Shown here piece after piece: positions 19,639 to 63,017 of a stretch of 64,000 nt of DNA. Under the pieces are notes generated by a model. It saw nothing but the letters and a program-made list of their open reading frames with translations. It made no database searches and was not told the DNA's origin. The stretch covers positions 606,131 to 670,130 of the forward strand of contig OY969116.1 in assembly GCA_963698075.1 (NCBI GenBank), in the 5' to 3' direction. The position numbers and the translations under genes are program-made. Every line of letters starts with the position of its first letter. Positions within the stretch are counted from its first letter, which is position 1. This stretch comes from an uncultured Candidatus Berkelbacteria bacterium. Its GTDB lineage: Bacteria > Patescibacteriota > UBA1384 > UBA12157 > JAENIV01.

Positions 19639-20082
19639 TTATGGCCGCCAGAGTTTTTGCTGAGGGTTGTCTTGAACAATTTTATCCTCGACGACTTTAA
19701 AATACTCTTCAGCCGCATCAACTGCGTTCTTGGCTTCAGTCTTAACAACAGAAATCGGCTCGTAATAAACCTTATTTCTTTTGGTCGACATTCTGTTATA
19801 AATTGCCGTTAATGTATTAAATTTTACCCCTAAAACTGATTTGGCAAACTTTACCATTATTTTGTGGTGTCCTTTTCTAGACCCGGTACGATAACCCTTG
19901 GATAGCATTAAAGCTAAAGTGGTCGTGACTAATGAATCATAAGCTAATTTAAAAGCCGAGTCAGCGTCGCCGTCAATGAGTTTTTTAGCAGTTTGGTAAG
20001 TTTTTGCTGCTTTCTTTAAATAGTCGTTAATTTGTCTGAAGTTAACTGGCTGTCTTCTTAGTTTCGAAAAGTCGAAGCTCAT
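19639..20082 (-). CDS. HEPN-domain protein (toxin partner of MNT)
   Basis: 147 aa, helical, candidate Rx4-6H motif in RTGSRKGHH. It overlaps the upstream MNT gene by 41 nt. Confidence 0.55.
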   Translation of the reverse strand: MSFDFSKLRRQPVNFRQINDYLKKAAKTYQTAKKLIDGDADSAFKLAYDSLVTTTLALMLSKGYRTGSRKGHHKIMVKFAKSVLGVKFNTLTAIYNRMSTKRNKVYYEPISVVKTEAKNAVDAAEEYFKVVEDKIVQDNPQQKLWRP

Positions 20083-20689
20083 TTTCCCCTCCCTTGATAA
20101 AAATTAGTTTTCCATTAATCAGGTCATGAATATAAGTGTCTTCGTTTTTTAATTTTTCTTGAAACTCTTTCTCAAGCAATATATCAACATTAATTTCTCG
20201 CCCAAAGCGTTCGCTGAGTCTATCGATTCGATCGCTAATTTCCTCAAAAACTCTGTTATTCTTCTTGGCAATTACAAAGAGATCAATGTCACTCTCATTA
20301 TCAAGATTCCCCTTTGCGTAAGAGCCATAAATAAATGAAATGAGAATATTTTGATTAGGAATTATACAAGATCCCAGCAATTTAGGTATTCCGACAGTTT
20401 TGACAACAATATCTCGTAAAGAATTGTATATCGGGCTGTCTTTATCTAAAGAATAAAACTTGATATTTCCGACTTTCTCTGATTTGAGTACCCCAGCTTT
20501 TTCAAGATTAATGAGTTCTCGCCTAATATTTCCGATCGACACCTTGAGGATTCTTTCAAGCTCTCGCATATAAAAACGTTCCTTTGAACTAAGCATAAAC
20601 TGGACTAATAATTTAACTCGAGTTCGCGAGCGGAAAAAATTTAGTGGATTGGCTTTTTGTTCGTCTTGTTCCATAGCGTTGTAGTCCAT
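20042..20689 (-). CDS. wHTH-fused minimal nucleotidyltransferase (MNT, antitoxin-like)
   Basis: N-terminal ArsR-like wHTH (FYMRELERILKVSIGNIRRELINLEKAGVL). C-terminal nucleotidyltransferase fold GSYAKGNLDNESDIDLFVI (GS..D.D). Confidence 0.65.
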   Translation of the reverse strand: MDYNAMEQDEQKANPLNFFRSRTRVKLLVQFMLSSKERFYMRELERILKVSIGNIRRELINLEKAGVLKSEKVGNIKFYSLDKDSPIYNSLRDIVVKTVGIPKLLGSCIIPNQNILISFIYGSYAKGNLDNESDIDLFVIAKKNNRVFEEISDRIDRLSERFGREINVDILLEKEFQEKLKNEDTYIHDLINGKLIFIKGGENELRLFETKKTAS

Positions 20690-42958: not shown

Positions 42959-43048
42959 GGAGAGGTGCTGGAGTGGTTGATCAGGCCGCTCTCGAAAAGC
43001 GGTAAGTCCGCAAGGGCTTCGTGAGTTCGAATCTCACCCTCTCCGCCA
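42959..43048 (+). tRNA. tRNA-Ser (anticodon CGA), type II with long variable arm
   Basis: Acceptor GGAGAGG/CCTCTCC. D-arm with GG. 5-bp anticodon stem CCGCT/AGCGG with loop CT-CGA-AA. 18-nt variable arm. T-arm GTGAG-TTCGAAT-CTCAC. Discriminator G plus CCA. Confidence 0.85.
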
Positions 43049-46143: not shown

Positions 46144-47214
46144 TCAGTCCTTGATAATTTTTTCAATTTCTTTTCTGATGCCGTTACCTCGACAATGTTT
46201 TAGAATGCCAAGATAAGATTGGATACTCATCTCCAATAATTCTGCATCCAGCGAGCCGTCAAGAAACAATTGATAATTATATCGAATATTTTTTAATATC
46301 CGTCGTTTAGTTGTAGCCCGTAAGACTATATGGTGAGGAAATAGAACATATCCCAAGAAATCAATTCCCTGGGTCCATTTCTTTATATGAATTTTATGTG
46401 GATGAAGTTGCAGTAAAAGATGATTTTTTAAAAATCCTTCAAGAATAGGAATTAAACTTTCTAAATGTATTTTATCTCTACTGATAATGATGAAATCGTC
46501 TGCATATCTGACAAAACACTTAACACTTAATCCTCTTTTTACAAATTGGTCCATAGGATTCAAATAGATATTAGAGAAAAGCTGAGAAGTAAGATTGCCA
46601 AGCGGTATTCCCCGAGTCTTAAATGCAGAATTGACGCTTTCATAGCTCGTAATAATTTCTTTAAGGAGCCATAATAATTTTTTCTCCTCAATTTTTTCAG
46701 ATAATAGATCCATTAAAGCTTGATGGTCGACTGAATCAAAGAATTTTGAGATATCACATTTCAAGAACCAAACGGGTTTAGTGTTATTTTTAGATAATCT
46801 CCAAGCAAGCTTTTGGCATTTCCTAATAGCTTTATGAGTGCCTTTGTTTTTCCGGCTGGAGTAAGAATCAAAGATAAAACCTTTATCAAATAATGGTTCG
46901 ATAACCCTCATTATCGCGTGATGGAGGACCCTGTCTTTGACTTGGGCTTTGTGAATATGTCTTAGCTTCGGATCACAAATATAAAAAGAGGCATAACTTG
47001 AATGCCGATAAGACAGATTTAGGAGGTCATAATGTAAAGCAAAGATATTGTTCTCAAGGTTTATTCCGAACTCTCTTACATCTGCTTTTTTCTCTTTTCC
47101 CACCTTAAACTCTTTCCAAGCAGCAAATAAATTATTAAGTGAGATTATTTGGAGGTATAAATTATGAATAACACTTTCGCTATCAACAAATTCTTCGATA
47201 TTTCTATTATCCAT
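46144..47214 (-). CDS. Diversity-generating retroelement reverse transcriptase
   Basis: RT motifs: KPVWFLKCDISKFFDSVDH, IPLGNLTSQLFSNIYL (the DGR-diagnostic [ILV]GxxxSQ in place of QGxxxSP), RYADDFII (YADD), QGIDFLGY. 356 aa with a short thumb. It lies adjacent to Avd, TR and VRs. Confidence 0.85.
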   Translation of the reverse strand: MDNRNIEEFVDSESVIHNLYLQIISLNNLFAAWKEFKVGKEKKADVREFGINLENNIFALHYDLLNLSYRHSSYASFYICDPKLRHIHKAQVKDRVLHHAIMRVIEPLFDKGFIFDSYSSRKNKGTHKAIRKCQKLAWRLSKNNTKPVWFLKCDISKFFDSVDHQALMDLLSEKIEEKKLLWLLKEIITSYESVNSAFKTRGIPLGNLTSQLFSNIYLNPMDQFVKRGLSVKCFVRYADDFIIISRDKIHLESLIPILEGFLKNHLLLQLHPHKIHIKKWTQGIDFLGYVLFPHHIVLRATTKRRILKNIRYNYQLFLDGSLDAELLEMSIQSYLGILKHCRGNGIRKEIEKIIKD

Positions 47215-47532
47215 AAGACCTATAAATTCTATTTACATTTATATTCGGTTAATCAAACCTTGCCCAAAAAAGATCGTTATGGTTTAGGTCTGAAAACGGA
47301 AAATTTAGCGATGCAAATGCTCGAAATGCTTTTTGAAGCCAATGCTAAATCCGGAAGCCAAAGGGTTGAGATGCTAAACAAAATAGATTTGAAACTTAAA
47401 GTTTTACAGACCGTTATCCGACTTTGCTGGGAAGCAAAAGCGCTTGATGAAAATAAGTACATAAAACTACAAGAGCTTTTACAGGAAATCGGAAAAATGC
47501 TCGGTGGTTGGATCAAAGCAACCAAAATGTAA
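47164..47532 (+). CDS. avd: DGR accessory variability determinant (Avd, four-helix-bundle protein)
   Basis: YSVNQTLPKKDRYGLGLKTENLAMQMLEMLFEAN...LQELLQEIGKMLGGWIKA aligns with Bordetella phage bAvd (YPIAQSIPRKHGVAREMFL...IAEVGRILGSWIAR). GGAGG RBS. It is on the opposite strand to the RT and overlaps its 5' end by about 50 nt. Confidence 0.75.
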   Translation: MNNTFAINKFFDISIIHKTYKFYLHLYSVNQTLPKKDRYGLGLKTENLAMQMLEMLFEANAKSGSQRVEMLNKIDLKLKVLQTVIRLCWEAKALDENKYIKLQELLQEIGKMLGGWIKATKM

Positions 47533-47557
47533 TTGACTTGTGGATAAGAACTTTTAA

Positions 47558-47681
47558 GACTTCGGGAGAAGGAAACGCCGAGATTGTCATTCCGATTGTC
47601 AGGTTCATTCGCATTGACATTGACACCATCAGACTTGAAGTTGCCGACATTGACGAGCTTGCCCTCAGAGTTCCGACGTTT
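47558..47681 (-). repeat. DGR template repeat (TR), template sense on the minus strand
   Basis: 124 bp, homologous to VR1 and VR2. In template sense it encodes Asn-rich KRRNSEGKLVNVGNFKSDGVNVNANEPDNRNDNLGVSFSRS (AAY codons). It is not within a gene. Confidence 0.85.
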
Positions 47682-47968
47682 CCTACACTTTTCCATCCAA
47701 GGCAGCAGTAATATGTGGTTTTTACCCAGACATTACTTGTATTAATATGTGGCAGCATCCGCTTAATGAGCGAAACCTGCACCAGAAAAGTGTAGAGCAG
47801 TCTTAATTTAGTAGGCGAAGCGCATCCGTAAACACGCTTTCATTGCCTAATAACATTTTACCAGCAATTTAGTAATTCTAAAAGAAGAGATCTATATAAA
47901 AAATTTTGGATCGGCTGCCAACCCAGAGGGTTGGCAGATCAAAGTTTCAAATATCAACGCTCAAAGTG

Positions 47969-48937
47969 TCAACGACTGCGGGAGAAGGAAACGCCGAGAG
48001 CGCCACCCCGATCGCCAGGTCCATCCGCATCGACACAGACACCATCAGACCCGAAGCCGCCGACACCGACGAGCCCGCCCCCAGAGTTCCGACGACCAGT
48101 CCAAGAATAAATATTTTCTAGTAATCTTTGCTCATTATTTTCACGGTACATTATAAGGTCATAGAGAGCCTCTACCGGTTTTTGTCGTGTTAATTCAGTA
48201 ATTTTAAGCGCCTCTAGTCGTGCAGCTGCCTCTTTCCAATCAGAATCGATTAAACGCTCAATTTCCGAACGTTTGCCATTAAATTCTTCAACGGCTTCCT
48301 GAAATTCTTTTGGCAATGCACCACCCGGAAACGCCTGATTAAGATAGCCTATAATAGTATCTGTCTGTTCGAGATAGTTTTTACTTGTAGAATCGGGAAT
48401 AACTTCTTTGGAAGTAAGCGCCCATTCCATTTGTGGTGTTTCTTCGGTAAAAAATTTCTCGCCTTTATACCAATCAGTATCGTAGAGAACTTTTTCGTCC
48501 CTTCCTTCAAAACGAGCCGAAAGAAGACCCTCCATGCGTTCCATAGTCAGCGGGCTACCGTCAAGGTCACAATTTGCTCTTAAAACTAAGAATTGACCCA
48601 ACCCCTTCGCTTTTTCGAGTTCAGTTGCACTAAAAGGAATACTGGGGACTTCGGCGGAATTTATTTTTATCCCGAATGCCTTTTCGACTTCTTCTGGGCC
48701 CAGGCAATCACTACCTAAAATTTCTTTAGCTTTTTCAACCTGTTTGGCAATCTCACCACCCAATTCCGGTTCGGAAGTTATCCCAAATAGCCCTTTCAAT
48801 TCAAGAGCTTTTTGCAGAATCGCTTCATAGTCGGCGTCGGTCCTAGCACGACTTCGAAGTACAGTGATTTCTTTAGCAATTGTTATGCCTTGTGTCTCTT
48901 TTTCAGCGTCTTCTGGAGTTGGACCAAATTCGCTCAT
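47969..48937 (-). CDS. DGR target protein 1 (C-type-lectin/FGE-like C-terminal domain carrying VR1)
   Basis: C-terminus ..NIYSWTGRRNSGGGLVGVGGFGSDGVCVDADGPGDRGGALGVSFSRSR* matches the CLec VR pattern (..RGGSW...PDNRN..GFR). The body is paralogous to the C-terminal 250 aa of target 2. Confidence 0.75.
   Translation of the reverse strand: MSEFGPTPEDAEKETQGITIAKEITVLRSRARTDADYEAILQKALELKGLFGITSEPELGGEIAKQVEKAKEILGSDCLGPEEVEKAFGIKINSAEVPSIPFSATELEKAKGLGQFLVLRANCDLDGSPLTMERMEGLLSARFEGRDEKVLYDTDWYKGEKFFTEETPQMEWALTSKEVIPDSTSKNYLEQTDTIIGYLNQAFPGGALPKEFQEAVEEFNGKRSEIERLIDSDWKEAAARLEALKITELTRQKPVEALYDLIMYRENNEQRLLENIYSWTGRRNSGGGLVGVGGFGSDGVCVDADGPGDRGGALGVSFSRSR
47974..48097 (-). repeat. DGR variable repeat VR1
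   Basis: 21 mismatches against the TR, all at TR template-sense A positions (plus-strand T in TR becomes C, G or A). The flanking 25 nt including the stop are identical or nearly identical (IMH-like GGGAGAAGGAAACGCCGAG). Confidence 0.85.
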
Positions 48938-49023
48938 ATTTTTATTCCTTTACCTATTAAATAAAATTTGTATCGACCGCCTCCGGCGGATCAAAGCCAC
49001 AAATATCAAATAACAAAGTTACA

Positions 49024-49148
49024 GACTGCGGGAGAAGGAAACGCCGAGATCGCCACCCCGATCGCCAGGCTCAGGCGCACCGACATCGACACCATCAGAC
49101 CCGAAGCCGCCGACACCTGACGAGCCTGCCCCCAGAGCGCCGACGTTT
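49024..49148 (-). repeat. DGR variable repeat VR2 (contains a 1-nt insertion relative to TR and VR1)
   Basis: About 22 mismatches against the TR, all at template-sense A positions. There is one extra nucleotide at about 49116-49118 (plus strand caCCTga against TR caTTga). Confidence 0.8.
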
Positions 49149-51113
49149 TGTCCAGGTATAAACATTGGGAAGCAATCGCTCGCCTGTGGTTTGAAAGTAC
49201 GCCGCAAGATCATAGAGCGCTTCAGCGGGTGTTTGTCGAGTAAGCTCGGTGATTTGTAACCCTTCAAGCATTTCAGCCGCCTTTCGCCAGTCAGAAGAAA
49301 GAGTCTCAGCAATACCACCTCTTGCCTTTTGAAATTCATCAATGGCAGTCCGGTAAGCTTCAGGCAATGGACGATCTTTAAAGACTTGATTTTGTAGATA
49401 ATCGACGACCCTATCAGTTTGATCAAGATAATTTTTGCTTGTTGTCTCGGGGACTACGTCTTTTGAGACTAAAGCCCACTTCACTTCCATTTTTTCTTCG
49501 CGCAAGAATTTCTCGTCTTTATACCAGCAATCGTCTTTAAGTTTACCGGTTTTTTCGTCAAAAGCGTAAAGGAGCTTTTTTCCGTCTTTTACTTTACCGC
49601 TTAACTTTTCGTTAATTTCAGCCATAGTCATCGGCAAGCGCAAAACTAACATTTGCCCGAGCTCTTTTGCCCTCTCTAATTCTTCTTTAGAGAACGGAAT
49701 AGCCGGTGCTTCAACACTACCTTCAATACCAAAAGCATTTTTGGCTTCTTCTGGTCCAACAAAGTCTGCTCCCATGATCGTCTTAGCTTCTAAGATATCC
49801 GGCGAAAGCACCGTTTCACTGCTTCTTAAAGCTTCCTTGACAGAATCTGGAACTTCTGGTCTTGTCAATAAATCCGCAAGTTCCTTTTCGGTACGGGTTT
49901 TAGTAGTGCTTTCTGGACGGCTCGCTTGCTCGTCGAGCGTTCTTCTTCTTGTTTCGGCGGTCGGTACATAACCGACATGACGGATCAATTCCTCTAGTTT
50001 TTGTCTTTCAGTCGGAGATTCTAATTTATTAAGATAGTAATATCTTAAGGCGGTTTGGACGGTATCATTAATATCACCACTATAGAAACGCAGGACGAAA
50101 TCTCTGACCCGTCGGGGTTCCATGCGGTCATCGAAGGTAAAAGGTTGAGGTTGATCAGCACCTACTTTTCGTTCTTTGACCATTTCTTTGGCTGCACGAT
50201 GGAATTCTTGATACTTTTGCAGAACCTCCTGCATTCCTGGTATTTCGGCCAATGCTTCTGGTGAAAGTTTATTCTCTCTTGAAACAAGAAAGGATTTTTC
50301 CGATACTTCTTCGGTGGTTTGAACCAAACCAAAAAGAGCTTCAGTTGAATAATTAAAAGTGTCGGGTGGTAAATCAGTGACTTCTTTTTGATAAACCCAA
50401 CGACGAAGTTGAGCTGGATCGAGTGGCTCTCGACCGAAATAACCCTTGCCAGGCGGGTTCATAAAAGCGACAATTTTAGTTTTTTGTTTGCTGACCTCAA
50501 CTGATTCCGAGGCGTCTTCAGAAAGAACGACCTCGCCGTTTCTTTCTATCGCGTCTAAAACCTCATGCAAACGAATTAAAATGTTAGGGGCAGCGGCATT
50601 GATTTCGTCTAAAACAACTACTTTGGTTTTACCTTCCTCTTGTCTTAAACCGGCGGTGACTCGGCCATCGGCAAAAACATATTCTGGATCGTCTGGTTTG
50701 GTTCGGTGAGGATTAGGAATATAACGACCCATCAGGTCCTCAACATCGGTCGCGCCGTTCAAGTTGGCATAATGGACCTCCCAACCAAGCTCTGAACACA
50801 TTTTCCTGGCGGTGGTTGTTTTACCGACACTTGTGCCGGCCTCTACTAAGATCGGGTCTCCCTCTAACCAACTAACAGCTATCTTTTGTTGCAGTTCTAA
50901 GGCGAAACGATCACTAATATAATCTTGGTATTGCTCACGCTTGGGTGTAAATTCAGAAGTAGTTTTGGCTTTTTCTAAACGCACACCCAAATAAGAGACG
51001 GCAGTTTCGTCTTCTTGGACAGGCCGGCGAGTTTCGGGGTTGACCCGGGTCTGACTAACGGTCTCTTCCGATTCCGAAGCCGGATTAAAGTTAGATTCTG
51101 GTGAATTTGGCAT
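49095..51113 (-). CDS. DGR target protein 2: MoxR-like AAA+ (AAA_5) ATPase fused to a CLec-like domain; C-terminus frameshifted inside VR2
   Basis: Walker A ILVEAGTSVGKTTTARKM, Walker B KVVVLDEINAA, NPPGKGYFGREPLDPAQLRRW (MoxR/AAA_5 signature). The C-terminal 250 aa are paralogous to target 1. The reading frame ends TWTKRRRSGGRLVRCRRLRV*, whereas the alternative frame (ORF 49019-49426) continues ..GVGGFGSDGVDVGAPEPGDRGGDLGVSFSRSL* as in target 1. Confidence 0.7.
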   Translation of the reverse strand: MPNSPESNFNPASESEETVSQTRVNPETRRPVQEDETAVSYLGVRLEKAKTTSEFTPKREQYQDYISDRFALELQQKIAVSWLEGDPILVEAGTSVGKTTTARKMCSELGWEVHYANLNGATDVEDLMGRYIPNPHRTKPDDPEYVFADGRVTAGLRQEEGKTKVVVLDEINAAAPNILIRLHEVLDAIERNGEVVLSEDASESVEVSKQKTKIVAFMNPPGKGYFGREPLDPAQLRRWVYQKEVTDLPPDTFNYSTEALFGLVQTTEEVSEKSFLVSRENKLSPEALAEIPGMQEVLQKYQEFHRAAKEMVKERKVGADQPQPFTFDDRMEPRRVRDFVLRFYSGDINDTVQTALRYYYLNKLESPTERQKLEELIRHVGYVPTAETRRRTLDEQASRPESTTKTRTEKELADLLTRPEVPDSVKEALRSSETVLSPDILEAKTIMGADFVGPEEAKNAFGIEGSVEAPAIPFSKEELERAKELGQMLVLRLPMTMAEINEKLSGKVKDGKKLLYAFDEKTGKLKDDCWYKDEKFLREEKMEVKWALVSKDVVPETTSKNYLDQTDRVVDYLQNQVFKDRPLPEAYRTAIDEFQKARGGIAETLSSDWRKAAEMLEGLQITELTRQTPAEALYDLAAYFQTTGERLLPNVYTWTKRRRSGGRLVRCRRLRV

Positions 51114-51120
51114 CGTAATT

Positions 51121-51525
51121 TTAAATTCGATAAGTTAAACCAACTCGTTCCAAAATATTATAATTGATACTAATGTTTTTAAGTATTTCATCGGTAGTCA
51201 AAAAGATAATACCTGTGTCTTGGTATTCTACTGAGTAAACCGTTGGTTGCATCGTATCGTGGTCAAAAAACTCAATTTGCCCCGTGGGATACTGAACTAT
51301 AAAATCATACTCTGGTTTAATGTCGCTACCCAACACTAAGAAATTTCTCTTATTATTTTTAATATTTTGCGCTAACTGGATAGCAGATTTAGATTCTATA
51401 AAATTTTCTTTTTTAAAGATTTCTTGGAATTCTTTTAATTCAGATTCATTACGAGCAATTGCCAAAGAAATCTCTTTTTGGCCTATTGTTAAATTTAAAA
51501 ATTGCTGAAACTTTTTTGTATCCAT
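51121..51525 (-). CDS. Hypothetical protein co-operonic with the AAA+/vWA genes
   Basis: 134-aa ORF between the vWA gene and the AAA+ target, with an 8-nt gap to the downstream gene. Confidence 0.45.
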   Translation of the reverse strand: MDTKKFQQFLNLTIGQKEISLAIARNESELKEFQEIFKKENFIESKSAIQLAQNIKNNKRNFLVLGSDIKPEYDFIVQYPTGQIEFFDHDTMQPTVYSVEYQDTGIIFLTTDEILKNISINYNILERVGLTYRI

Positions 51526-51538
51526 TGATTATAACTTA

Positions 51539-53605
51539 TCAAAATTTATCATAGTTAGCAATTACTTCGCGAATCAGATCGGCTAACTTTTCAGCCATTT
51601 CTTTAATGTTGACATCGGCTAAGCTATTAGGATAATATCTTTCAACATGTTTAGTACCGGGACCGATTCCTAAACCAATCAATTTTTGATTGGTTTCACT
51701 TAATATCCTTTGGACCATTTTTCCTAAATCGTACGTTGCTCGTGGGTGCATGAGTGACTCTTCGGGTCTGCCGTCTGATAAAACGATTAGGAATTTTTCG
51801 GCAGCCTTTTGTCTATTCAGTCTTTCCGAAGCCCGCTCTAGTGCCCAACCGTCGTCGTTCCATCGAGCCTTGCCCGTATCGCTCGTGTCGCTAACTTCCT
51901 GAAGCATGCCGCCCATATTCTCTCTGATGGAACTGGCCATTGGCTCCCCGAAGCTTTGATATTCATAAATACGATCATTAAAACCGAGTATCTCAGTTTG
52001 TATGGATAGACGGTTTAGAACTTCAGCAAGCACAATCACCGCCTTAAATGTCTCGTCGATTTTTTCACCCTGCATTGAGCCAGAAAGATCAGCTAGAAGT
52101 GTAATCGCATAATCTTTTTCTGCAGGCAACTCACGTCGTTCCCAGGCCTTACTTTCCATTGCTGGTATGCCTTTAGCTTTTTCTTGGATTCTCTTTTTAA
52201 TATCAATTCTTTTACCAGTGCGAAAACCGCCATCCCATTGATGGGCACGCCTGGCAACGAACAACTCTCTTAAATCTTGCTCCAGCTGGTCAATAATCGG
52301 CAAAACTTCTCGGCGATATCGCTCGTAGATATTAGCGTCTTTTTTAAGTTCTTTGGCTACCAATTCTCGATATTTTCTGATTTCTTCAGATTCTTCTGGT
52401 CTCGTAGGAGGAGGTCCTTCAGAGACTTTTGGACGTTCGGAAATTTCTTCGGTTGCTCTATCGGCCTTCTTTTCGGGATCATCCGATAACTTGCCTCCTA
52501 TTTCTTCATTCAGTTCTTTTTCAAAATCTTTAAGTGCCGCTTCGGCTTTTTCCTGCAGTTCTTTTTTCTTTTCTTCTGGCAAAGAATCGATATAATCTTG
52601 TATTTTTTGCTTTAGCTCTTCGGAGAATGAGTCCATATCTATCGGCATAGGTTGACCTTCTGCCTGTTGCTTTTGCGCTTCCTCCAAAGCTTTTTTGATT
52701 GCCTCTTCAAGAGTTTTTTGTTCTTCAGGCGTTAATTTATCCGTTAGCTCTTGTGGTTGACCTTGACCTTCACTCGTGGCTTGTTCCATCTCTTTTAATA
52801 ACTCTTGGGTTTGCTGGTCTTCCATATCTTTTTCAACCAGTTTTTTGAATTCTGGCCAAACCCGATCTCTATTAATTTCATACGATCTTTCTGCATACCG
52901 ACTGATTAATTCTTCGCTTTTATCAGCTTCGGCTCTTGAAGGATACCGCCACCAAGAATCTCTGGCTGATTCCAAAGTAGTCGAGACAACGACTTTGACG
53001 TCTTCTGGCAAATCTTCAGAGATTTTTATTTCTTCACCTCTGATTTCTCCAAACCATTGTCTAATATATTCATATCCCGCCTGCATAAACTTGGGTTTGC
53101 GTCCAAGTTTATCTTGAGCTTCTTCGCTCATTTTACTCTGCGATTCAAAAAATTTTCCCCATGCAATATCAACATTTTCTTGATATTTTGGATAACTTTC
53201 AGCCACAAAATTATCACTCCTTGGATCTTCAATAAAGTTTGACATCGCCGAAAATCCAGGCTGTTGCCATACTTCCAAAGGAATAAATTCCGTTCTACTT
53301 ACCCTGCGATGGCCGCCTTCATGGCAGATTAGATAACGAAGTTCGTCAATCGGTTTTTCCAAAAGATCTTTGGGATCTATCCGGATTTTGTTTTCCTTAA
53401 AATCCCAATGCCAACCCTTTCCTGGTTCGTTCAATTCGACTGGAATTCTAAAATCTTTGCCGATAAAAAAGGCAAGTGATGATAGAATTTGTCTTTTCCT
53501 TTCAATCTCCGCAAGATCAGATTCAGTGAATTCAGGGTTAGATTCTGGCTGTTCAGTTCCTCCTAGATAATCCTCTGTTGAATTGTATGTTTCCGGATTA
53601 GCCAT
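51539..53605 (-). CDS. vWA-domain protein with N-terminal HExxH metallopeptidase-like motif
   Basis: LICHEGGHRRVS (HExxH). Acidic coiled-coil middle. C-terminal vWA with MIDAS DLSGSM (DxSxS) and ..VLSDGRPEE. The usual partner of a MoxR AAA+ ATPase. Confidence 0.65.
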   Translation of the reverse strand: MANPETYNSTEDYLGGTEQPESNPEFTESDLAEIERKRQILSSLAFFIGKDFRIPVELNEPGKGWHWDFKENKIRIDPKDLLEKPIDELRYLICHEGGHRRVSRTEFIPLEVWQQPGFSAMSNFIEDPRSDNFVAESYPKYQENVDIAWGKFFESQSKMSEEAQDKLGRKPKFMQAGYEYIRQWFGEIRGEEIKISEDLPEDVKVVVSTTLESARDSWWRYPSRAEADKSEELISRYAERSYEINRDRVWPEFKKLVEKDMEDQQTQELLKEMEQATSEGQGQPQELTDKLTPEEQKTLEEAIKKALEEAQKQQAEGQPMPIDMDSFSEELKQKIQDYIDSLPEEKKKELQEKAEAALKDFEKELNEEIGGKLSDDPEKKADRATEEISERPKVSEGPPPTRPEESEEIRKYRELVAKELKKDANIYERYRREVLPIIDQLEQDLRELFVARRAHQWDGGFRTGKRIDIKKRIQEKAKGIPAMESKAWERRELPAEKDYAITLLADLSGSMQGEKIDETFKAVIVLAEVLNRLSIQTEILGFNDRIYEYQSFGEPMASSIRENMGGMLQEVSDTSDTGKARWNDDGWALERASERLNRQKAAEKFLIVLSDGRPEESLMHPRATYDLGKMVQRILSETNQKLIGLGIGPGTKHVERYYPNSLADVNIKEMAEKLADLIREVIANYDKF

Positions 53606-55714: not shown

Positions 55715-56488
55715 CTAACTAATCTTCGTCGCTTTAAGACCGGTCACTTTAGCAACTCGATCAATTGCGGTTCTAACATATTCGGGGTCAAGCTCGATCC
55801 CGTAGCACTTCCTTTTAACTTGTTCGGCAGCCAGAATGCTACTCCCTGATCCCAAAAATCCATCGTAAATGACATCTCCAATCCTAGAACTATTAAGTAT
55901 AAGGTTCCTTAAAAGTCCGATCGGCTTCATTGTTGGATGAAGTTTGGATTTGTTTGGTTTGGGGTAGAAGAGCAGACTCTTATCTTTTGATTTACGAAAC
56001 TCATGCGTTCCAAGCCATCCGAAGGCGACTAATTCATGCTGTGGCAAGTAATTGAGTCTACCAATTACTGGATGGCTTTTTACCCATATAAGCAATTGTG
56101 CGAACTTAAACCCTGCCTGAAGCATTCCTTCTCTTAGCGCAAAAATCATTTTGTCACTATTGAAAATGTACGCACTATTTTTTTGAGCAAGATAAGGCTT
56201 TATTGCCTCTAACCATTCTGTTGTGAATTGTCGATATTCATCGTCAGTCTGTTCTTGATCATTAAGAATCGCCTTATGTTTGTATGACTTTTGGAAGATT
56301 TGCTTGCTTTCGCTTAGAGAAACTCCGTAAGGAGGATCTATAAGCAAGATCTTAACTTTTTCATTTTCGATTAATTTTTTAATTATTTCTGGGTCTCGAG
56401 CATCCCCATTAATAATTTTATGATCACCGATTTTGAACATATCCCTATAATTAATATTATCTTTTTCCATTTGGAACTCCTTTCGCAA
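55715..56488 (-). CDS. DNA N6-adenine/N4-cytosine methyltransferase (beta class)
   Basis: Motif IV LLIDPPYGV (DPPY) precedes motif I VIYDGFLGSGSSILAAEQ. pfam01555-like. Confidence 0.7.
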   Translation of the reverse strand: MRKEFQMEKDNINYRDMFKIGDHKIINGDARDPEIIKKLIENEKVKILLIDPPYGVSLSESKQIFQKSYKHKAILNDQEQTDDEYRQFTTEWLEAIKPYLAQKNSAYIFNSDKMIFALREGMLQAGFKFAQLLIWVKSHPVIGRLNYLPQHELVAFGWLGTHEFRKSKDKSLLFYPKPNKSKLHPTMKPIGLLRNLILNSSRIGDVIYDGFLGSGSSILAAEQVKRKCYGIELDPEYVRTAIDRVAKVTGLKATKIS

Positions 56489-57767
56489 TTAATTTTGGTT
56501 TTTCACCAGTCAAGGTCTCAAAACGTTTCAATATCAGATCAACGAAGATCGGCTCTTTTTCAACCATCGCTACCTTTCTTTTTAGCTGGACCGCTGCGGA
56601 CATCACAGGGCCAGATCCAGCAAACATATCCAGAATTAAATCGCCGGGCCGCGTGCAACGCCTTAAGGGTTTTTCAAAAAGCGTAGCTGGTTTTTCTGTC
56701 GGATGCTCATAGTTTTGCCCTGCAATCCTTTTGACCATCCAGATGTCCAGTTGGTCAAGGATGTCGTCAATCTGCCGATTCCCGGTTGCAATTTGCTTGT
56801 TTAAGATTTCTGTAAGATTTGGACACTTTGGGGAGGTGTATGGCTTGCCACGTGTGCCATACGTAACTGGTTCATATGACTTATTGAATGCCACTTGAGG
56901 CGTAGGGTTAAAAGCTCCCTTTATCCAGAGACAGGTACGGACAGGCTTGATGTTCAATTTTTTATATAGCGTTTGAATCAGCCAGACATAGCTTTGGTCG
57001 GAAAAGTAAAAATAATGTGAATCTTTTTTACTGAACTTAATTGCATTTGTTATGCTCTGTTTTAAAAATTCTTTATATTCTTCGTCGCTTTTGCTATCAT
57101 CAACATGACCGCCATATGAGGATTTACCGCCAATTCCTGAATTGTAATCGAGAGAAATATTAAAAGGTGGATCGCAACACACCATGTCTGCATGCTTACC
57201 AGACATAAGTATTTCAATTGCTTTTTCATTGAGGGAATCCGCACATAAAAGTCTGTTTTCGCCTAACGAATAAAGATCACCTTCTTTTGAGGCAGGACTC
57301 TTAATTCGTTCAAGCTCTTTGTGGGCGTCAAATTCATCTTCTGAAACCTCTAAAGCATCATCAAAAATGTTCGAAATCTCAAAATCTTTAAATCCTGCTT
57401 CCAAAACTACATCGATATCAAAGCTTCTTAATAAATCATAATCCCATGAGCCATTCGAAATGTTCATTTTCAGTAAAATATCTTTTTCTTTTTTTGGATC
57501 GCTAACACAGATTCTAACCACCGGAACTTTCTGAAGTTTAAGTCTTTGTGCAGCCACAAGTCTCAAGTTACCCGAAAGCACTATATTCTCTCGATCTGGA
57601 GCAGAATTGACTATCAGAGGGTTTATAATCCCGTGGTCTTTGAAACTTCCCATTACTTTCTGGATTTCCTGCTCGCCGAATGTTCGGGGATTTCCAGGGT
57701 AGAATTTAAGTGATTTTACATCGACATATTCGATGGAAATTTTCTCTTTCAATTTTTCTTTGTTCAT
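56457..57767 (-). CDS. ParB-like nuclease domain fused to a DNA methyltransferase
   Basis: N-terminal ParB/Srx YPGNPRTFGEQEIQKVMGSFKDHGIINPLIV. MTase motif IV CCDPPFNI and motif I ILDMFAGSGPVMSAAVQ. Confidence 0.7.
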   Translation of the reverse strand: MNKEKLKEKISIEYVDVKSLKFYPGNPRTFGEQEIQKVMGSFKDHGIINPLIVNSAPDRENIVLSGNLRLVAAQRLKLQKVPVVRICVSDPKKEKDILLKMNISNGSWDYDLLRSFDIDVVLEAGFKDFEISNIFDDALEVSEDEFDAHKELERIKSPASKEGDLYSLGENRLLCADSLNEKAIEILMSGKHADMVCCDPPFNISLDYNSGIGGKSSYGGHVDDSKSDEEYKEFLKQSITNAIKFSKKDSHYFYFSDQSYVWLIQTLYKKLNIKPVRTCLWIKGAFNPTPQVAFNKSYEPVTYGTRGKPYTSPKCPNLTEILNKQIATGNRQIDDILDQLDIWMVKRIAGQNYEHPTEKPATLFEKPLRRCTRPGDLILDMFAGSGPVMSAAVQLKRKVAMVEKEPIFVDLILKRFETLTGEKPKLIAKGVPNGKR

Positions 57768-58079
57768 TTTTACTCCTTTCGTTACTTGTCGCGTCTTTTA
57801 ACAAAAAAGGCGCGATTTGCAAACAAAAAATTACCTTTCGGTAAATTTTCATTTGAAACTCGCGCCTTAAAAGCGTCGATCTCAAACGTAGATTATTAAA
57901 TTTTTTAACTGTTTGTTGCTTTACGCAACTACAATCTTATTATAAAGTATCCATCTAATTTGTCAAGCTCCAGTAATCAACCATTCCCTGTTTACCAATG
58001 GCTCTTCAGGTGATATATTTATGATGATAGATTATAAACAACACAGATTTAACTTTTACCACAAATAAAAAAGATCAAT

Positions 58080-58625: not shown

Positions 58626-58659
58626 CTTTTAAAGAAAATAGTCCATCAAAAATAATCAA

Positions 58660-58798
58660 TGTTCTCCTGTTTACCAATCGCTCTTCAGGTGATATATTTA
58701 TGATGATAAATTACGAACACCAAATTGATCAAATGGTCCATAAACTTTATGGCTTAACTCATGAAGAAATCGAAACAATCGAACAAAAATCGCAGTAA
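58660..58798 (+). pseudogene. Remnant C-terminal tail of an N6-adenine MTase or Type IIG/BREX-PglX-like enzyme
   Basis: Encodes ..SSGDIFMMINYEHQIDQMVHKLYGLTHEEIETIEQKSQ*, the typical ..VDKLVYELYGLTEEEIKIVE tail. There are stops upstream. A second decayed copy lies at 57988-58078 and a third, different one at about 59700-59797 (..IDRPVHKLYGYARGNKSL*). Confidence 0.5.
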
Positions 58799-62199: not shown

Positions 62200-62266
62200 T
62201 TTTTCTAATCCAAACAAAAAGTCTTCGAAATCTTTTAGATAAAGCCAAAAGAGAGGGAACGATAAA

Positions 62267-62650
62267 ATGAAAGATAGAAAAATAATTCTTGAACTTACGC
62301 CCGAAGAAGTTAGACTATTAGCATACGGTGCTATGCCAAATGATTTGAAAGCAAGGTTAAGAGAAATTGCTCATCATATTGATGGGCAGATTAAAGTTGA
62401 AGAAGACTTAGAAAAGGTAGTGCCAAAATTACCAGATCCCAATAATTATATCGATATAGTCCGGAAAAAATATCCCAGGGCTTACCACAAATGGGCTAAG
62501 GAAGAGAGTATCAGATTAAAAATGCTTTTTTCTGAAGGTAGTTCAATTAAGGAAATATCAAGTTTACTGCAAAGGCAACCAGGAGGAGTTCGTTCAAAAT
62601 TAATAAAAATGGGATTATTGGAGGAAATTAAAAATGATTCAAACCGCTGA
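62267..62650 (+). CDS. Hypothetical protein with possible C-terminal HTH
   Basis: 127 aa, SIKEISSLLQRQPGGVRSKL. First of four tightly packed or overlapping genes. Confidence 0.45.
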   Translation: MKDRKIILELTPEEVRLLAYGAMPNDLKARLREIAHHIDGQIKVEEDLEKVVPKLPDPNNYIDIVRKKYPRAYHKWAKEESIRLKMLFSEGSSIKEISSLLQRQPGGVRSKLIKMGLLEEIKNDSNR

Positions 62651-62996
62651 AGAATTCATTCAATACAAGATAGAACAGTTTAAAAGAGGATTGCTGATAA
62701 AAGTCAAGGATATCAGTCGTAATGGTTTCCATTATTGGAAAAGAGAAGCTTGGACTTTTATGCCACAAAGCAATTATGATGGTAAAGTTTTTATTATTGA
62801 AAGGTTGGAGAGGGTTAAATCTGACATAGAATCTGCTAAAATCGGTGATATCGAATATAGAATCGGTTATTATATTGTTGGTAAAATAGGAAGAGCAAAT
62901 GGAAAATGGACTTGGGGACAATTTTGTCCATTAATACCACAGGAAGATTTTGCTAAATTATTTGATAAAGCGAAAAGAGAAGGAACTATAAAATAA
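62634..62996 (+). CDS. Hypothetical protein
   Basis: 120 aa. It overlaps the upstream gene by 17 nt. Its last 11 codons are duplicated upstream at 62238-62270. Confidence 0.45.
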   Translation: MIQTAEEFIQYKIEQFKRGLLIKVKDISRNGFHYWKREAWTFMPQSNYDGKVFIIERLERVKSDIESAKIGDIEYRIGYYIVGKIGRANGKWTWGQFCPLIPQEDFAKLFDKAKREGTIK

Positions 62997-63017
62997 AAGT
63001 TATCGAGGAACCAGTGA

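What the first reader, a model, noticed from the sequence alone, without database searches (positions are those of the whole stretch)
49019..49426. VR2 carries a 1-nt insertion that frameshifts target 2 out of its diversified C-terminus
Relative to TR (..gacaTTgacgag..) and VR1 (..gacaCCgacgag..), VR2 reads ..gacaCCTgacgag... The AAA+ target ORF therefore terminates early (..RLVRCRRLRV*, stop at 49095). The canonical VR-encoded ending (..GFGSDGV..GVSFSRSL*) is only readable in the +1 frame (the 49019-49426 ORF). Possible explanations are a recently inactivated target, a sequencing or assembly indel, or a minority haplotype from an error-prone retrohoming event.
Basis: seen in the sequence. Interest (0 to 1): 0.6.

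Follow-up and report, generated by a model that had tools for sequence, protein, structure and literature searches.

The report
Frameshifted variable repeat in a DGR target
One of the two genes that a diversity-generating retroelement rewrites in this ultra-small groundwater bacterium carries one extra base inside its variable region, which cuts off the variable tip of the protein; this kind of slip is already documented for such elements and is probably a transient by-product of their error-prone copying.

Summary
The window holds a complete DGR of the layout typical of candidate-phyla-radiation bacteria: RT, reverse-oriented avd, TR and two targets. VR2 is one base longer than TR and VR1. 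TR reads GTC-AA-TGTC, VR1 GTC-GG-TGTC and VR2 GTC-AGG-TGTC.

The AAA+ target therefore ends early (…RLVRCRRLRV*, stop at 49095). The family-typical ending (GVGGFGSDGV…LGVSFSRSL*) is readable only in the +1 frame. There is no compensating indel.

- A syntenic ortholog and 117 of the 120 best homologs read straight through the VR, so the shift is not programmed.
- The insertion sits on a TR adenine pair.
- Every other TR/VR2 difference is at a TR adenine, and the IMH-like end and downstream hairpin are intact.
- Relatives show the same type of event: L025 has both VRs shifted at TR adenines, and P0106 has a 1-nt insertion.
- Wu et al. 2018 reported TR/VR length differences in 7% of DGRs and frameshifts in 3%, mostly beside AAC.

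The best reading is a recent, real slip made by the DGR itself, which the next retrohoming could erase. An assembly or consensus error cannot be excluded without reads. This is an ordinary new instance of a known phenomenon and of low interest.

The parts
46144..47214 (-). DGR reverse transcriptase gene (356 aa), intact
   Evidence: It matches PF00078 RVT_1 at E = 2e-26. The translation shows the DGR-type LGNLTSQ motif and a YADD catalytic motif.
47164..47532 (+). avd accessory gene (122 aa), on the strand opposite to TR and RT
   Evidence: It matches PF22296 bAvd at E = 1.4e-19. The order TR-(avd)-RT is the 'B3' architecture that makes up 90% of CPR DGRs in PMC5758913.
47558..47681 (-). Template repeat (TR). 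It carries about 30 adenines, including the AA pair at 47650-47651 opposite the VR2 insertion.
   Evidence: It is collinear with VR1 without gaps, and all differences from both VRs are at its adenines.
47969..48937 (-). Target 1 (322 aa). It is a short paralog of the C-terminal half of target 2, and its frame is intact through VR1.
   Evidence: The AlphaFold2 model has mean pLDDT 92.3. VR1-encoded residues, from about 280 to 322, form the last beta strands.
47974..48097 (-). VR1, same length as TR
   Evidence: It has 25 differences from TR, all at TR adenines: 21 A>G, 2 A>T and 2 A>C.
47915..47937 (.). GC-rich hairpin downstream of VR1 (10-bp stem, 3-nt loop), preceded by the CTTTGATC motif
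   Evidence: Sequence; fold.
49095..51113 (-). Target 2 as it now reads: 672 aa, with a MoxR/AAA_5 ATPase N-terminal half. It ends early, after 7 out-of-frame residues (RCRRLRV*).
   Evidence: The identical 672-aa protein, P0001, is on record from a 929,420-nt contig.
49024..49148 (-). VR2, one base longer than TR
   Evidence: It has 23 differences from TR, all at TR adenines (19 A>G, 4 A>C), plus one inserted base.
49116..49118 (-). Site of the extra base. The coding sense reads AGG where TR has AA and VR1 has GG. Which of the three bases is the extra one cannot be decided.
49019..49115 (-). Orphaned 3' part of VR2. It encodes the canonical ending VGGFGSDGVDVGAPEPGDRGGDLGVSFSRSL* in the +1 frame and includes the IMH-like end CTCGGCGTTTCCTTCTCCCGC.
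   Evidence: It has no non-adenine differences from TR.
48977..48989 (.). GC-rich hairpin downstream of VR2 (CCGCC/GGCGG stem, 3-nt loop), preceded by the CTTTGATC motif
   Evidence: Sequence; fold. An equivalent hairpin follows both VRs of L004.
51121..51525 (-). Conserved small gene (134 aa) between the VWA gene and target 2
   Evidence: The same gene position is seen in L004 and L005.
51539..53605 (-). VWA-domain partner gene (688 aa) of the AAA+ target
   Evidence: It matches PF11775 CobT_C at E = 8.5e-14 and PF00092 VWA at E = 2.5e-7. It is syntenic in L004 and L005.

Best explanation
VR2 carries a genuine, recent single-base insertion made by the DGR itself.

Inferred origin. During the last mutagenic retrohoming into target 2, the RT copied the TR RNA and misincorporated at the adenine pair in ...GUC AAU GUC.... 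It then lost register by one base, so that three nucleotides (cDNA CCT, coding sense AGG) were laid down opposite two template adenines. The slip could instead have happened during cDNA integration. The cDNA replaced VR2.

Shown consequence. The MoxR-type AAA+ target is now read out of frame after ...SGGRLV. It gains 7 aberrant residues and loses the 32 VR-encoded residues that build the last beta strands of its variable C-terminal domain. The ATPase half is untouched.

Inferred outlook. The IMH-like 3' end and the downstream GC hairpin of VR2 are intact, and RT, avd and TR are intact as well. The next retrohoming event could therefore overwrite VR2 and restore the frame. On this reading the allele is a transient by-product of the mutator and not a decaying pseudogene.
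For: 1. The insertion lies exactly opposite a TR AA pair, and the neighbouring position is A>G substituted. Only about 40% of possible insertion points in the TR touch an adenine.
2. The indels in related elements whose TR is available also lie at TR adenines. L025 VR-a has a 1-nt deletion and VR-b a 2-nt deletion at TR GACAAT. Both are frameshifted, and the canonical LGACLSRS* end is in another frame.
3. P0106/L006 has a 1-nt insertion in a variable codon, in a short-read assembly. A relative more than 90% identical to it (P0123) is intact.
4. The event is recent. There are 0 non-adenine differences between VR2 and TR over about 124 nt. The orphaned tail is still open and canonical, and the rest of the 672-aa ORF aligns end to end with orthologs at 60-65% identity.
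5. The shift is not a family feature. 117 of the 120 best homologs, and the syntenic ortholog in L004, read through the VR in frame.
6. The neighbourhood shows no other split genes. Five suspicious overlapping ORF pairs each carry distinct or complete domains, or match no family, so none looks like one gene split in two. This argues against an indel-ridden assembly.
7. Literature. In PMC5758913, 25 of 372 DGRs have TR/VR length differences and 11 of these shift the frame. 74% of the indels lie next to AAC in the TR, which the authors attribute to RT slippage. PMC12875486 proposes transient template slippage by the DGR RT at adenines, with insertions expected if register is not restored.
8. The machinery looks competent. 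The RT is intact with SQ and YADD motifs, avd is intact, the IMH-like end is identical in TR, VR1 and VR2, and hairpins follow both VRs.
Against: - No reads are available, and only one assembly covers VR2. Exact-protein look-ups failed. No fragment more than 70% identical to the target 2 C-terminus exists in the protein collection. The one near-identical contig, L003, stops before VR2.
- AGG can equally be read as duplication of a G in a post-homing AG. The sequence alone therefore cannot separate an RT slip from later replication slippage or from a consensus error in a heterogeneous VR.
- The positional argument is weak for a single case (likelihood ratio about 2.5).
- Current activity of this DGR is not shown.
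Confidence: 0.55

Rival explanations
1. Assembly or consensus artefact. The organism's VR2 is in frame, and the extra base was created when a hypervariable, three-copy repeat (TR, VR1, VR2) from a mixed population was assembled or polished. It could also be a residual long-read indel.
For: - VRs are heterogeneous in populations and repeated within 1.6 kb, which is a known weak spot for consensus calling.
- The source contig is 929 kb, so long reads may have been used.
- The related sample is groundwater from the Hainich site, where Nanopore plus Illumina assemblies have been made.
- No second assembly of VR2 exists to cross-check.
Against: - The extra base is not in a homopolymer run longer than 2.
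- The surrounding 64 kb shows long intact ORFs, and no other split genes were found among the suspicious pairs tested.
- Substitution-only variants cannot produce a length change in a k-mer graph.
- Comparable VR frameshifts occur in short-read assemblies of relatives (L006, L025).
- The literature base rate of real VR frameshifts is about 3% of DGRs. That is higher than a plausible per-124-nt error rate for an otherwise clean assembly.
Confidence: 0.25
2. Ordinary spontaneous indel unrelated to the DGR. Replication slippage duplicated a G in an AG-containing VR2 after the last homing event. Target 2 is then a young pseudogene that may or may not be rescued.
For: - AGG can be read as AG with a duplicated G.
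- Target 1 offers an intact paralogous variable domain, so loss of the variable tip of target 2 might be tolerated.
Against: - A 2-nt run is a poor slippage substrate.
- The other roughly 2 kb of the gene has no lesion.
- In relatives the in-VR indels sit at TR adenines, as in the survey of PMC5758913. That points to the RT.
- No decay is seen: there are 0 non-adenine changes.
Confidence: 0.15
3. Programmed +1 ribosomal frameshift, or another recoding event, that still yields a full-length protein from the shifted VR2.
For: The shift site GUC AGG U superficially recalls +1 sites that pause on an AGG codon (own knowledge of Ty-type sites). The +1 frame is open to the canonical stop.
Against: - The shift is not conserved. 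117 of 120 homologs and the ortholog in L004 are in frame.
- AGG is not rare here, at 6.3 per 1000 codons, similar to CGT and CGA.
- The site lies in hypervariable sequence that the DGR rewrites, so no recoding signal could be maintained there.
Confidence: 0.02

Closest known systems
TR/VR indels with frame shift in DGRs (Wu, Gingery et al. 2018, NAR 46:11; PMC5758913, Fig. 4C-E)
   Same: The VR differs from the TR in length by a number of bases that is not a multiple of three. The indel lies opposite an A-rich template codon, all other differences are A-to-N, and the second target of the same DGR is unaffected.
   Different: The template codon here is AAT, not AAC. The shift removes the whole conserved ending and does not merely recode a few residues before a compensating indel.
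CPR-type DGR cassette, architecture B3 TR-(avd)-RT, with AAA-ATPase ('Midasin'/P-loop) targets (UVR4 / category g1 of PMC5758913)
   Same: The order and orientation TR-(avd)-RT are the same. The host lineage is Patescibacteria. The target has an N-terminal AAA_5 domain and a C-terminal VR, and the DGR has multiple targets.
   Different: I could not compare the VR with the UVR4 alignment itself, because that supplementary data was not read. The link to UVR4 therefore rests on the shared AAA/Midasin annotation only.
Bordetella phage BPP-1 DGR (mtd / avd / TR / brt)
   Same: It shares adenine-specific TR-to-VR differences, an Avd protein, an RT with the SQ and Y-x-DD motifs, an IMH-like conserved 3' end with one discriminating base, and a GC-rich hairpin downstream of the VR.
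   Different: The element here is chromosomal and not in a phage. avd is inverted, there are two targets, and the target is a cytoplasmic-type AAA+ ATPase fusion, not a tail-fibre protein. The hairpin lies about 45 nt downstream and has a 3-nt loop. No activity data exist.
MoxR-family AAA+ ATPase with VWA-domain partner (e.g. RavA-ViaA, CbbQ-CbbO; own knowledge)
   Same: An AAA_5 ATPase is encoded next to a VWA-domain protein in a conserved operon.
   Different: The ATPase carries a C-terminal hypervariable, probably C-type-lectin-like domain written by a DGR. A short ATPase-less paralog follows it.

Membership tests
Diversity-generating retroelement (DGR) | Reverse transcriptase of the DGR clade (RVT_1 with the SQ dipeptide in motif 4 and a Y-x-DD active site) | tested here: met
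   RVT_1 matches at E = 2e-26. LGNLTSQLF and VRYADDF are read directly in the translation. No phylogeny was made.
Diversity-generating retroelement (DGR) | TR/VR repeat pair whose differences are almost all at template adenines | tested here: met
   Inside the repeat, 25 of 25 (VR1) and 23 of 23 (VR2) substitutions are at TR adenines.
Diversity-generating retroelement (DGR) | Accessory protein Avd | tested here: met
   PF22296 bAvd matches at E = 1.4e-19, 71 bits against a cutoff of 40.
Diversity-generating retroelement (DGR) | IMH at the VR 3' end, a non-identical IMH* at the TR 3' end, and a GC-rich inverted repeat downstream of the VR | tested here: met
   The 20-mer is identical in all three copies. 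It is followed by C in both VRs and by A in the TR (CCCGC against CCCGA), and the same discriminating base is seen in L025. Hairpins follow both VRs. Their function is inferred by analogy with PMC3240598 and was not tested.
Diversity-generating retroelement (DGR) | VR lies in a C-type-lectin (or Ig) fold that tolerates variation | tested here: inconclusive
Diversity-generating retroelement (DGR) | Ongoing mutagenic retrohoming | not testable with these tools
   This needs reads, a time series or cDNA sequencing. Indirect evidence only: VR1 and VR2 differ from each other only at TR-adenine positions, and there are no non-adenine changes.
DGR non-canonical mutagenesis: frame-shifting TR/VR indel (PMC5758913) | VR and TR differ in length by a number of bases that is not a multiple of three | tested here: met
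   VR2 has 1 nt more than TR and VR1.
DGR non-canonical mutagenesis: frame-shifting TR/VR indel (PMC5758913) | Indel adjacent to an A-rich template codon (AAC in 74% of published cases) | tested here: met
   The indel lies opposite the AA of an AAT codon. The codon is AAT and not AAC.
DGR non-canonical mutagenesis: frame-shifting TR/VR indel (PMC5758913) | Indel generated by the RT or by retrohoming, and not by sequencing error or later mutation | not testable with these tools
   No reads or cDNA data are available.
Programmed ribosomal frameshift | Shift site and two-frame arrangement conserved among homologs | tested here: not met
   117 of 120 homologs and the ortholog in L004 are in a single frame.
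Programmed ribosomal frameshift | Slippery or hungry-codon site | tested here: not met
   AGG occurs at 6.3 per 1000 codons and is not rare. There is no slippery heptamer at GTC AGG TGT.
MoxR-type AAA+ / VWA pair | AAA_5-type ATPase domain with Walker A, and an adjacent gene for a VWA-domain protein | tested here: met
   AAA_5 matches at E = 9e-14, and GTSVGKTT is read in the translation. CobT_C/VWA matches at E = 8.5e-14 in the gene two positions upstream. Sources name some homologs 'MoxR-like ATPase'.

The most novel reading that the evidence does not exclude
Frame-shifting slips at template adenines may not be pure noise. They could act as a DGR-driven ON/OFF switch. Retrohoming would occasionally write an out-of-frame VR that silences the variable domain of one target while the paralogous target stays on, and a later event would restore it. 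That would give phase-variation-like behaviour on top of sequence diversification. Two observations would fit a recurrent hot spot. In the only other sampled copy of this element (L003), the TR differs at one of the same two adenines (47650 A>G). In a relative (L025), both VRs are shifted at one template site.
Probability: 0.06. Interest if true: 0.5.

Novelty: new member of a known kind. Interest (0 to 1): 0.2.

Why it matters
The finding matters little on its own. It is one more natural example showing that DGR copying makes not only adenine substitutions but also occasional 1-nt register errors at adenine runs, and that these can knock a target out of frame.

It has two practical uses:
- As an annotation caveat. 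Target 2 should be annotated as a frameshifted DGR target whose true C-terminus ends at 49019. It is not a 672-aa protein plus a spurious 135-aa ORF.
- As a data point, together with L025 and P0106, for estimating how often DGRs damage their own targets. Here that is roughly 2-8% of VRs in this Patescibacteria AAA+/VWA-linked family. This is relevant to models of RT slippage and to engineered DGR mutagenesis systems.

Tried and rejected
- Exact-sequence look-ups of target 2, RT, the VWA protein and P0001 all returned 'not on record'. The source contig and its neighbours could not be fetched.
- A unique 29-mer beside VR2 is absent from viral contigs and genome contigs.
- The single metagenome scan, with the conserved 20-mer, gave four contigs. 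None of them covers VR2 of this strain.
- A second protein search with the C-terminal 178 aa found nothing above 70% identity, so no alternative VR2 haplotype is publicly assembled.
- A sequence search of the PDB with target 1 found nothing, with a best E-value of 0.55.
- A paper on Hainich long-read assemblies gave no information on this contig or on its indel rate.
- Programmed +1 frameshifting was considered and rejected for lack of conservation and because AGG is not rare.
- A separately translated 49019-49426 ORF was considered and rejected. Its part upstream of the insertion is the off-frame of target 2, and alternative-frame ORFs of 110-130 aa are common in this window.
- P0086/L005 first looked like a third frameshift. 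It is in fact a VR whose 3' part is replaced by unrelated sequence running into a tRNA-like stretch.
- The gaps in the TR/VR alignments of L017, L020 and L035 lie after the stop codon and are not in-VR indels.
Full report
**What is in the sequence**

The region 46.1-53.6 kb of the window holds a complete diversity-generating retroelement. All parts are read on the minus strand except avd.

- The RT gene lies at 46144-47214. It matches RVT_1 at E = 2e-26 and shows the LGNLTSQ and YADD motifs in its translation.
- The avd gene lies at 47164-47532 on the plus strand and matches bAvd at E = 1.4e-19.
- Three copies of a roughly 124-nt repeat follow, at 47558-47681, 47974-48097 and 49024-49148.

The first copy is adenine-rich and is the template repeat (TR). 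The other two close two genes: target 1 (47969-48937, 322 aa) and target 2 (49095-51113, 672 aa, N-terminal AAA_5 domain, E = 9e-14).

Inside the repeat, all 25 differences between TR and VR1 lie at TR adenines, as do all 23 between TR and VR2. A 20-mer at the 3' end is identical in the three copies, against 0 matches in shuffles. It is followed by C in both VRs and by A in the TR, as expected for IMH against IMH*. GC-rich hairpins preceded by CTTTGATC follow both VRs. The order TR-(avd)-RT is the 'B3' architecture, which accounts for 90% of CPR DGRs in the survey of Wu et al. (PMC5758913). AAA/'Midasin' targets are described there for CPR elements.

**The observation**

The alignment of the three copies has a single gap column inside the repeat. 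In coding sense, TR reads GTC-AA-TGTC, VR1 reads GTC-GG-TGTC and VR2 reads GTC-AGG-TGTC.

Target 2 therefore reads ...SGGRLV RCRRLRV* and stops at 49095. The sequence downstream, in the +1 frame, reads VGGFGSDGVDVGAPEPGDRGGDLGVSFSRSL* and stops at 49019. This is collinear with the end of target 1. No second indel restores the frame.

**Which frame is the intended one**

A metagenome contig (L004) carries the syntenic cassette at 66-70% nucleotide identity: VWA gene, small gene, AAA+ target, short target, RT. Its 706-aa AAA+ target runs through the VR in one frame and ends ...LVGVGFFESDGVSVGNDGPDSRYDDLGVSFSRSL*.

A search with the repaired target 2 found 424 homologs, almost all from Patescibacteria. 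Of the best 120, 117 end with the canonical ...LG(V/A)S(F/L)SR.. motif. The three exceptions are:

- the window's own protein (P0001, a singleton from a 929,420-nt contig);
- P0106, which has a 1-nt insertion in a variable codon of its VR, in a short-read assembly (L006). A relative more than 90% identical to it, P0123, is intact;
- P0086, whose VR 3' part is replaced by unrelated sequence.

The shift is therefore sporadic and is not a conserved recoding signal. AGG is also not a rare codon here (6.3 per 1000). Programmed frameshifting is rejected.

**What is lost**

An AlphaFold2 model of the intact paralog, target 1, is confident (mean pLDDT 92.3). The VR-encoded residues from the shift point onward are target 1 residues 291-322. 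They form most of the strand at 289-296 and the whole of the last two strands (299-305, 319-321) of the C-terminal sheet.

Foldseek matches to the PDB are all weak (E >= 0.6). They are dominated by formylglycine-generating enzyme, EgtB, Treponema TvpA and Bordetella Mtd, which share the C-type-lectin-like fold used by classical DGR targets. I treat the fold assignment as suggestive only.

The truncated target 2 keeps its MoxR-type ATPase half. It still has its VWA partner gene (51539-53605) and the small conserved gene (51121-51525). It lacks the core of its variable domain.

**How the insertion most likely arose**

Three lines of evidence point to the DGR itself.

1. Position. The extra base lies opposite an AA pair of the TR, next to an A>G substitution. 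About 40% of possible insertion points in the TR touch an adenine, so this is weak evidence when taken alone.
2. Relatives. I detected 37 TR/VR pairs in 43 related loci from GTDB genomes. The only in-VR indels are in L025. There, both VRs are shortened, by 1 nt and by 2 nt, at the template string GACAAT. Both are frameshifted, and the canonical LGACLSRS* end lies in another frame. The gaps in L017, L020 and L035 lie after the stop codon.
3. Literature. Wu et al. found TR/VR length differences in 25 of 372 DGRs, 11 of them frame-shifting. 74% lay beside AAC, and they proposed RT slippage. A 2026 study of the reconstituted BPP-1 element proposes transient loss of register at adenines, with insertions expected if register is not restored (PMC12875486).

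The event is recent. VR2 has no non-adenine differences from TR, the orphaned tail is still open and canonical, and the rest of the gene aligns end to end with orthologs. RT, avd, TR, the IMH-like end and the hairpin are all intact. I infer from this that the next retrohoming event into VR2 would erase the lesion.

**Rivals**

An assembly or consensus artefact cannot be excluded.

- For the artefact: no reads are available, only one assembly covers VR2, and the 929-kb contig may derive from long reads.
- Against it: the extra base is not in a homopolymer, the surrounding 64 kb shows long intact ORFs, and five suspicious ORF pairs are not split genes. Equivalent lesions also occur in short-read assemblies of relatives.

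A spontaneous G duplication after homing is also possible, because AGG can be read as AG plus G. The sequence alone cannot separate this from an RT slip.

My estimates are 0.55 for a DGR-made slip, 0.25 for an artefact, 0.15 for an unrelated spontaneous indel and 0.02 for recoding.

**Comparison with what is known, and novelty**

The cassette passes the tests for a DGR that could be run here: RT motifs, adenine-specific TR/VR differences, Avd, IMH/IMH* and hairpin. The fold of the target domain is inconclusive, and activity is untestable with these tools. The element belongs to the known CPR 'B3' type with AAA-ATPase targets.

The frameshift fits the published class of frame-shifting TR/VR indels. 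Its template codon is AAT and not AAC. It is a new member of a known kind. It is useful as an annotation correction and as a data point on how often DGRs damage their own targets, but it would not surprise a specialist.

**An unexplained detail**

The only other sampled copy of this element is L003, a low-coverage Hainich groundwater contig. It is 99.5% identical to the window over 1158 nt and differs at six positions. One of the six is 47650, one of the two TR adenines opposite the insertion (coding sense A>G). The post-hoc chance of this is about 1%. It may be coincidence, a low-coverage error, or a hint of a hot spot that also affects the TR.

Noticed in passing
window 47650 (TR); L003 whole contig: L003 (ERZ1292629 Hain-H43-01um, coverage 2) is 99.5% identical to window 46691-47848. 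One of its six differences is an A>G change (coding sense) at one of the two TR adenines opposite the VR2 insertion. The post-hoc chance is about 1%. The first 129 nt of the reverse-complemented contig do not match the window, so the contig end may be chimeric or rearranged.
   Followed up: partly
L025 1865-1980 and 2933-3049 (VRs), 3314-3431 (TR): In a related element (CAYJWZ010000026.1), both VRs are out of frame. One has a 1-nt deletion and the other a 2-nt deletion, at the same template string GACAAT near the VR 3' end.
   Followed up: partly
window 47164-47214: avd (+) and the RT gene (-) are divergent, and their annotated 5' ends overlap by 51 nt. A TR-RT co-transcript would carry the whole avd gene in antisense. 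This is typical of the B3 architecture, but the transcription logic is unexplained.
   Followed up: no
window 49095-53605; L004 8301-14056; L005 3332-8061: The operon VWA protein / roughly 135-aa protein / AAA_5-VR target (/ short ATPase-less VR paralog) is conserved across many Patescibacteria, with 424 homologs of the target. In L004 the RT module is inverted relative to the window.
   Followed up: partly
window VR1, VR2; loci L007-L042: A>G dominates the adenine substitutions in this DGR family. It makes up 61% of 595 substitutions in 37 related TR/VR pairs and 75-86% in the window. As a result the VRs are rich in Gly codons.
   Followed up: partly
L006 2450-2477: The Logan contig that carries the frameshifted P0106 ends in an Illumina adapter sequence, AGATCGGAAGAGCGTCGTGTAGGGAA.
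   Followed up: no
L005 8000-8144: In P0086's contig, the 3' part of the VR is replaced by unrelated GC-rich sequence that runs into a tRNA-like stretch (GGGGTCATAGCTCAGATGGGAGAGCG). This is a deletion, a rearrangement or a misassembly at the VR.
   Followed up: no
window 57957-58043 / 58636-58722 and 62235-62276 / 62961-63002: Two pairs of direct repeats (79% and 86% identity) lie upstream of consecutive plus-strand genes. They may be duplicated leader or promoter regions.
   Followed up: no
window 19639-20689 and 55715-57767: The window also holds a HEPN / nucleotidyltransferase pair and two adjacent N6_N4 DNA methylase genes, one with a ParB_N domain. With a class I tRNA-synthetase fragment at the window start and a tRNA-Ser at 42959-43048, these indicate a chromosomal Patescibacteria context and not a phage.
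   Followed up: no
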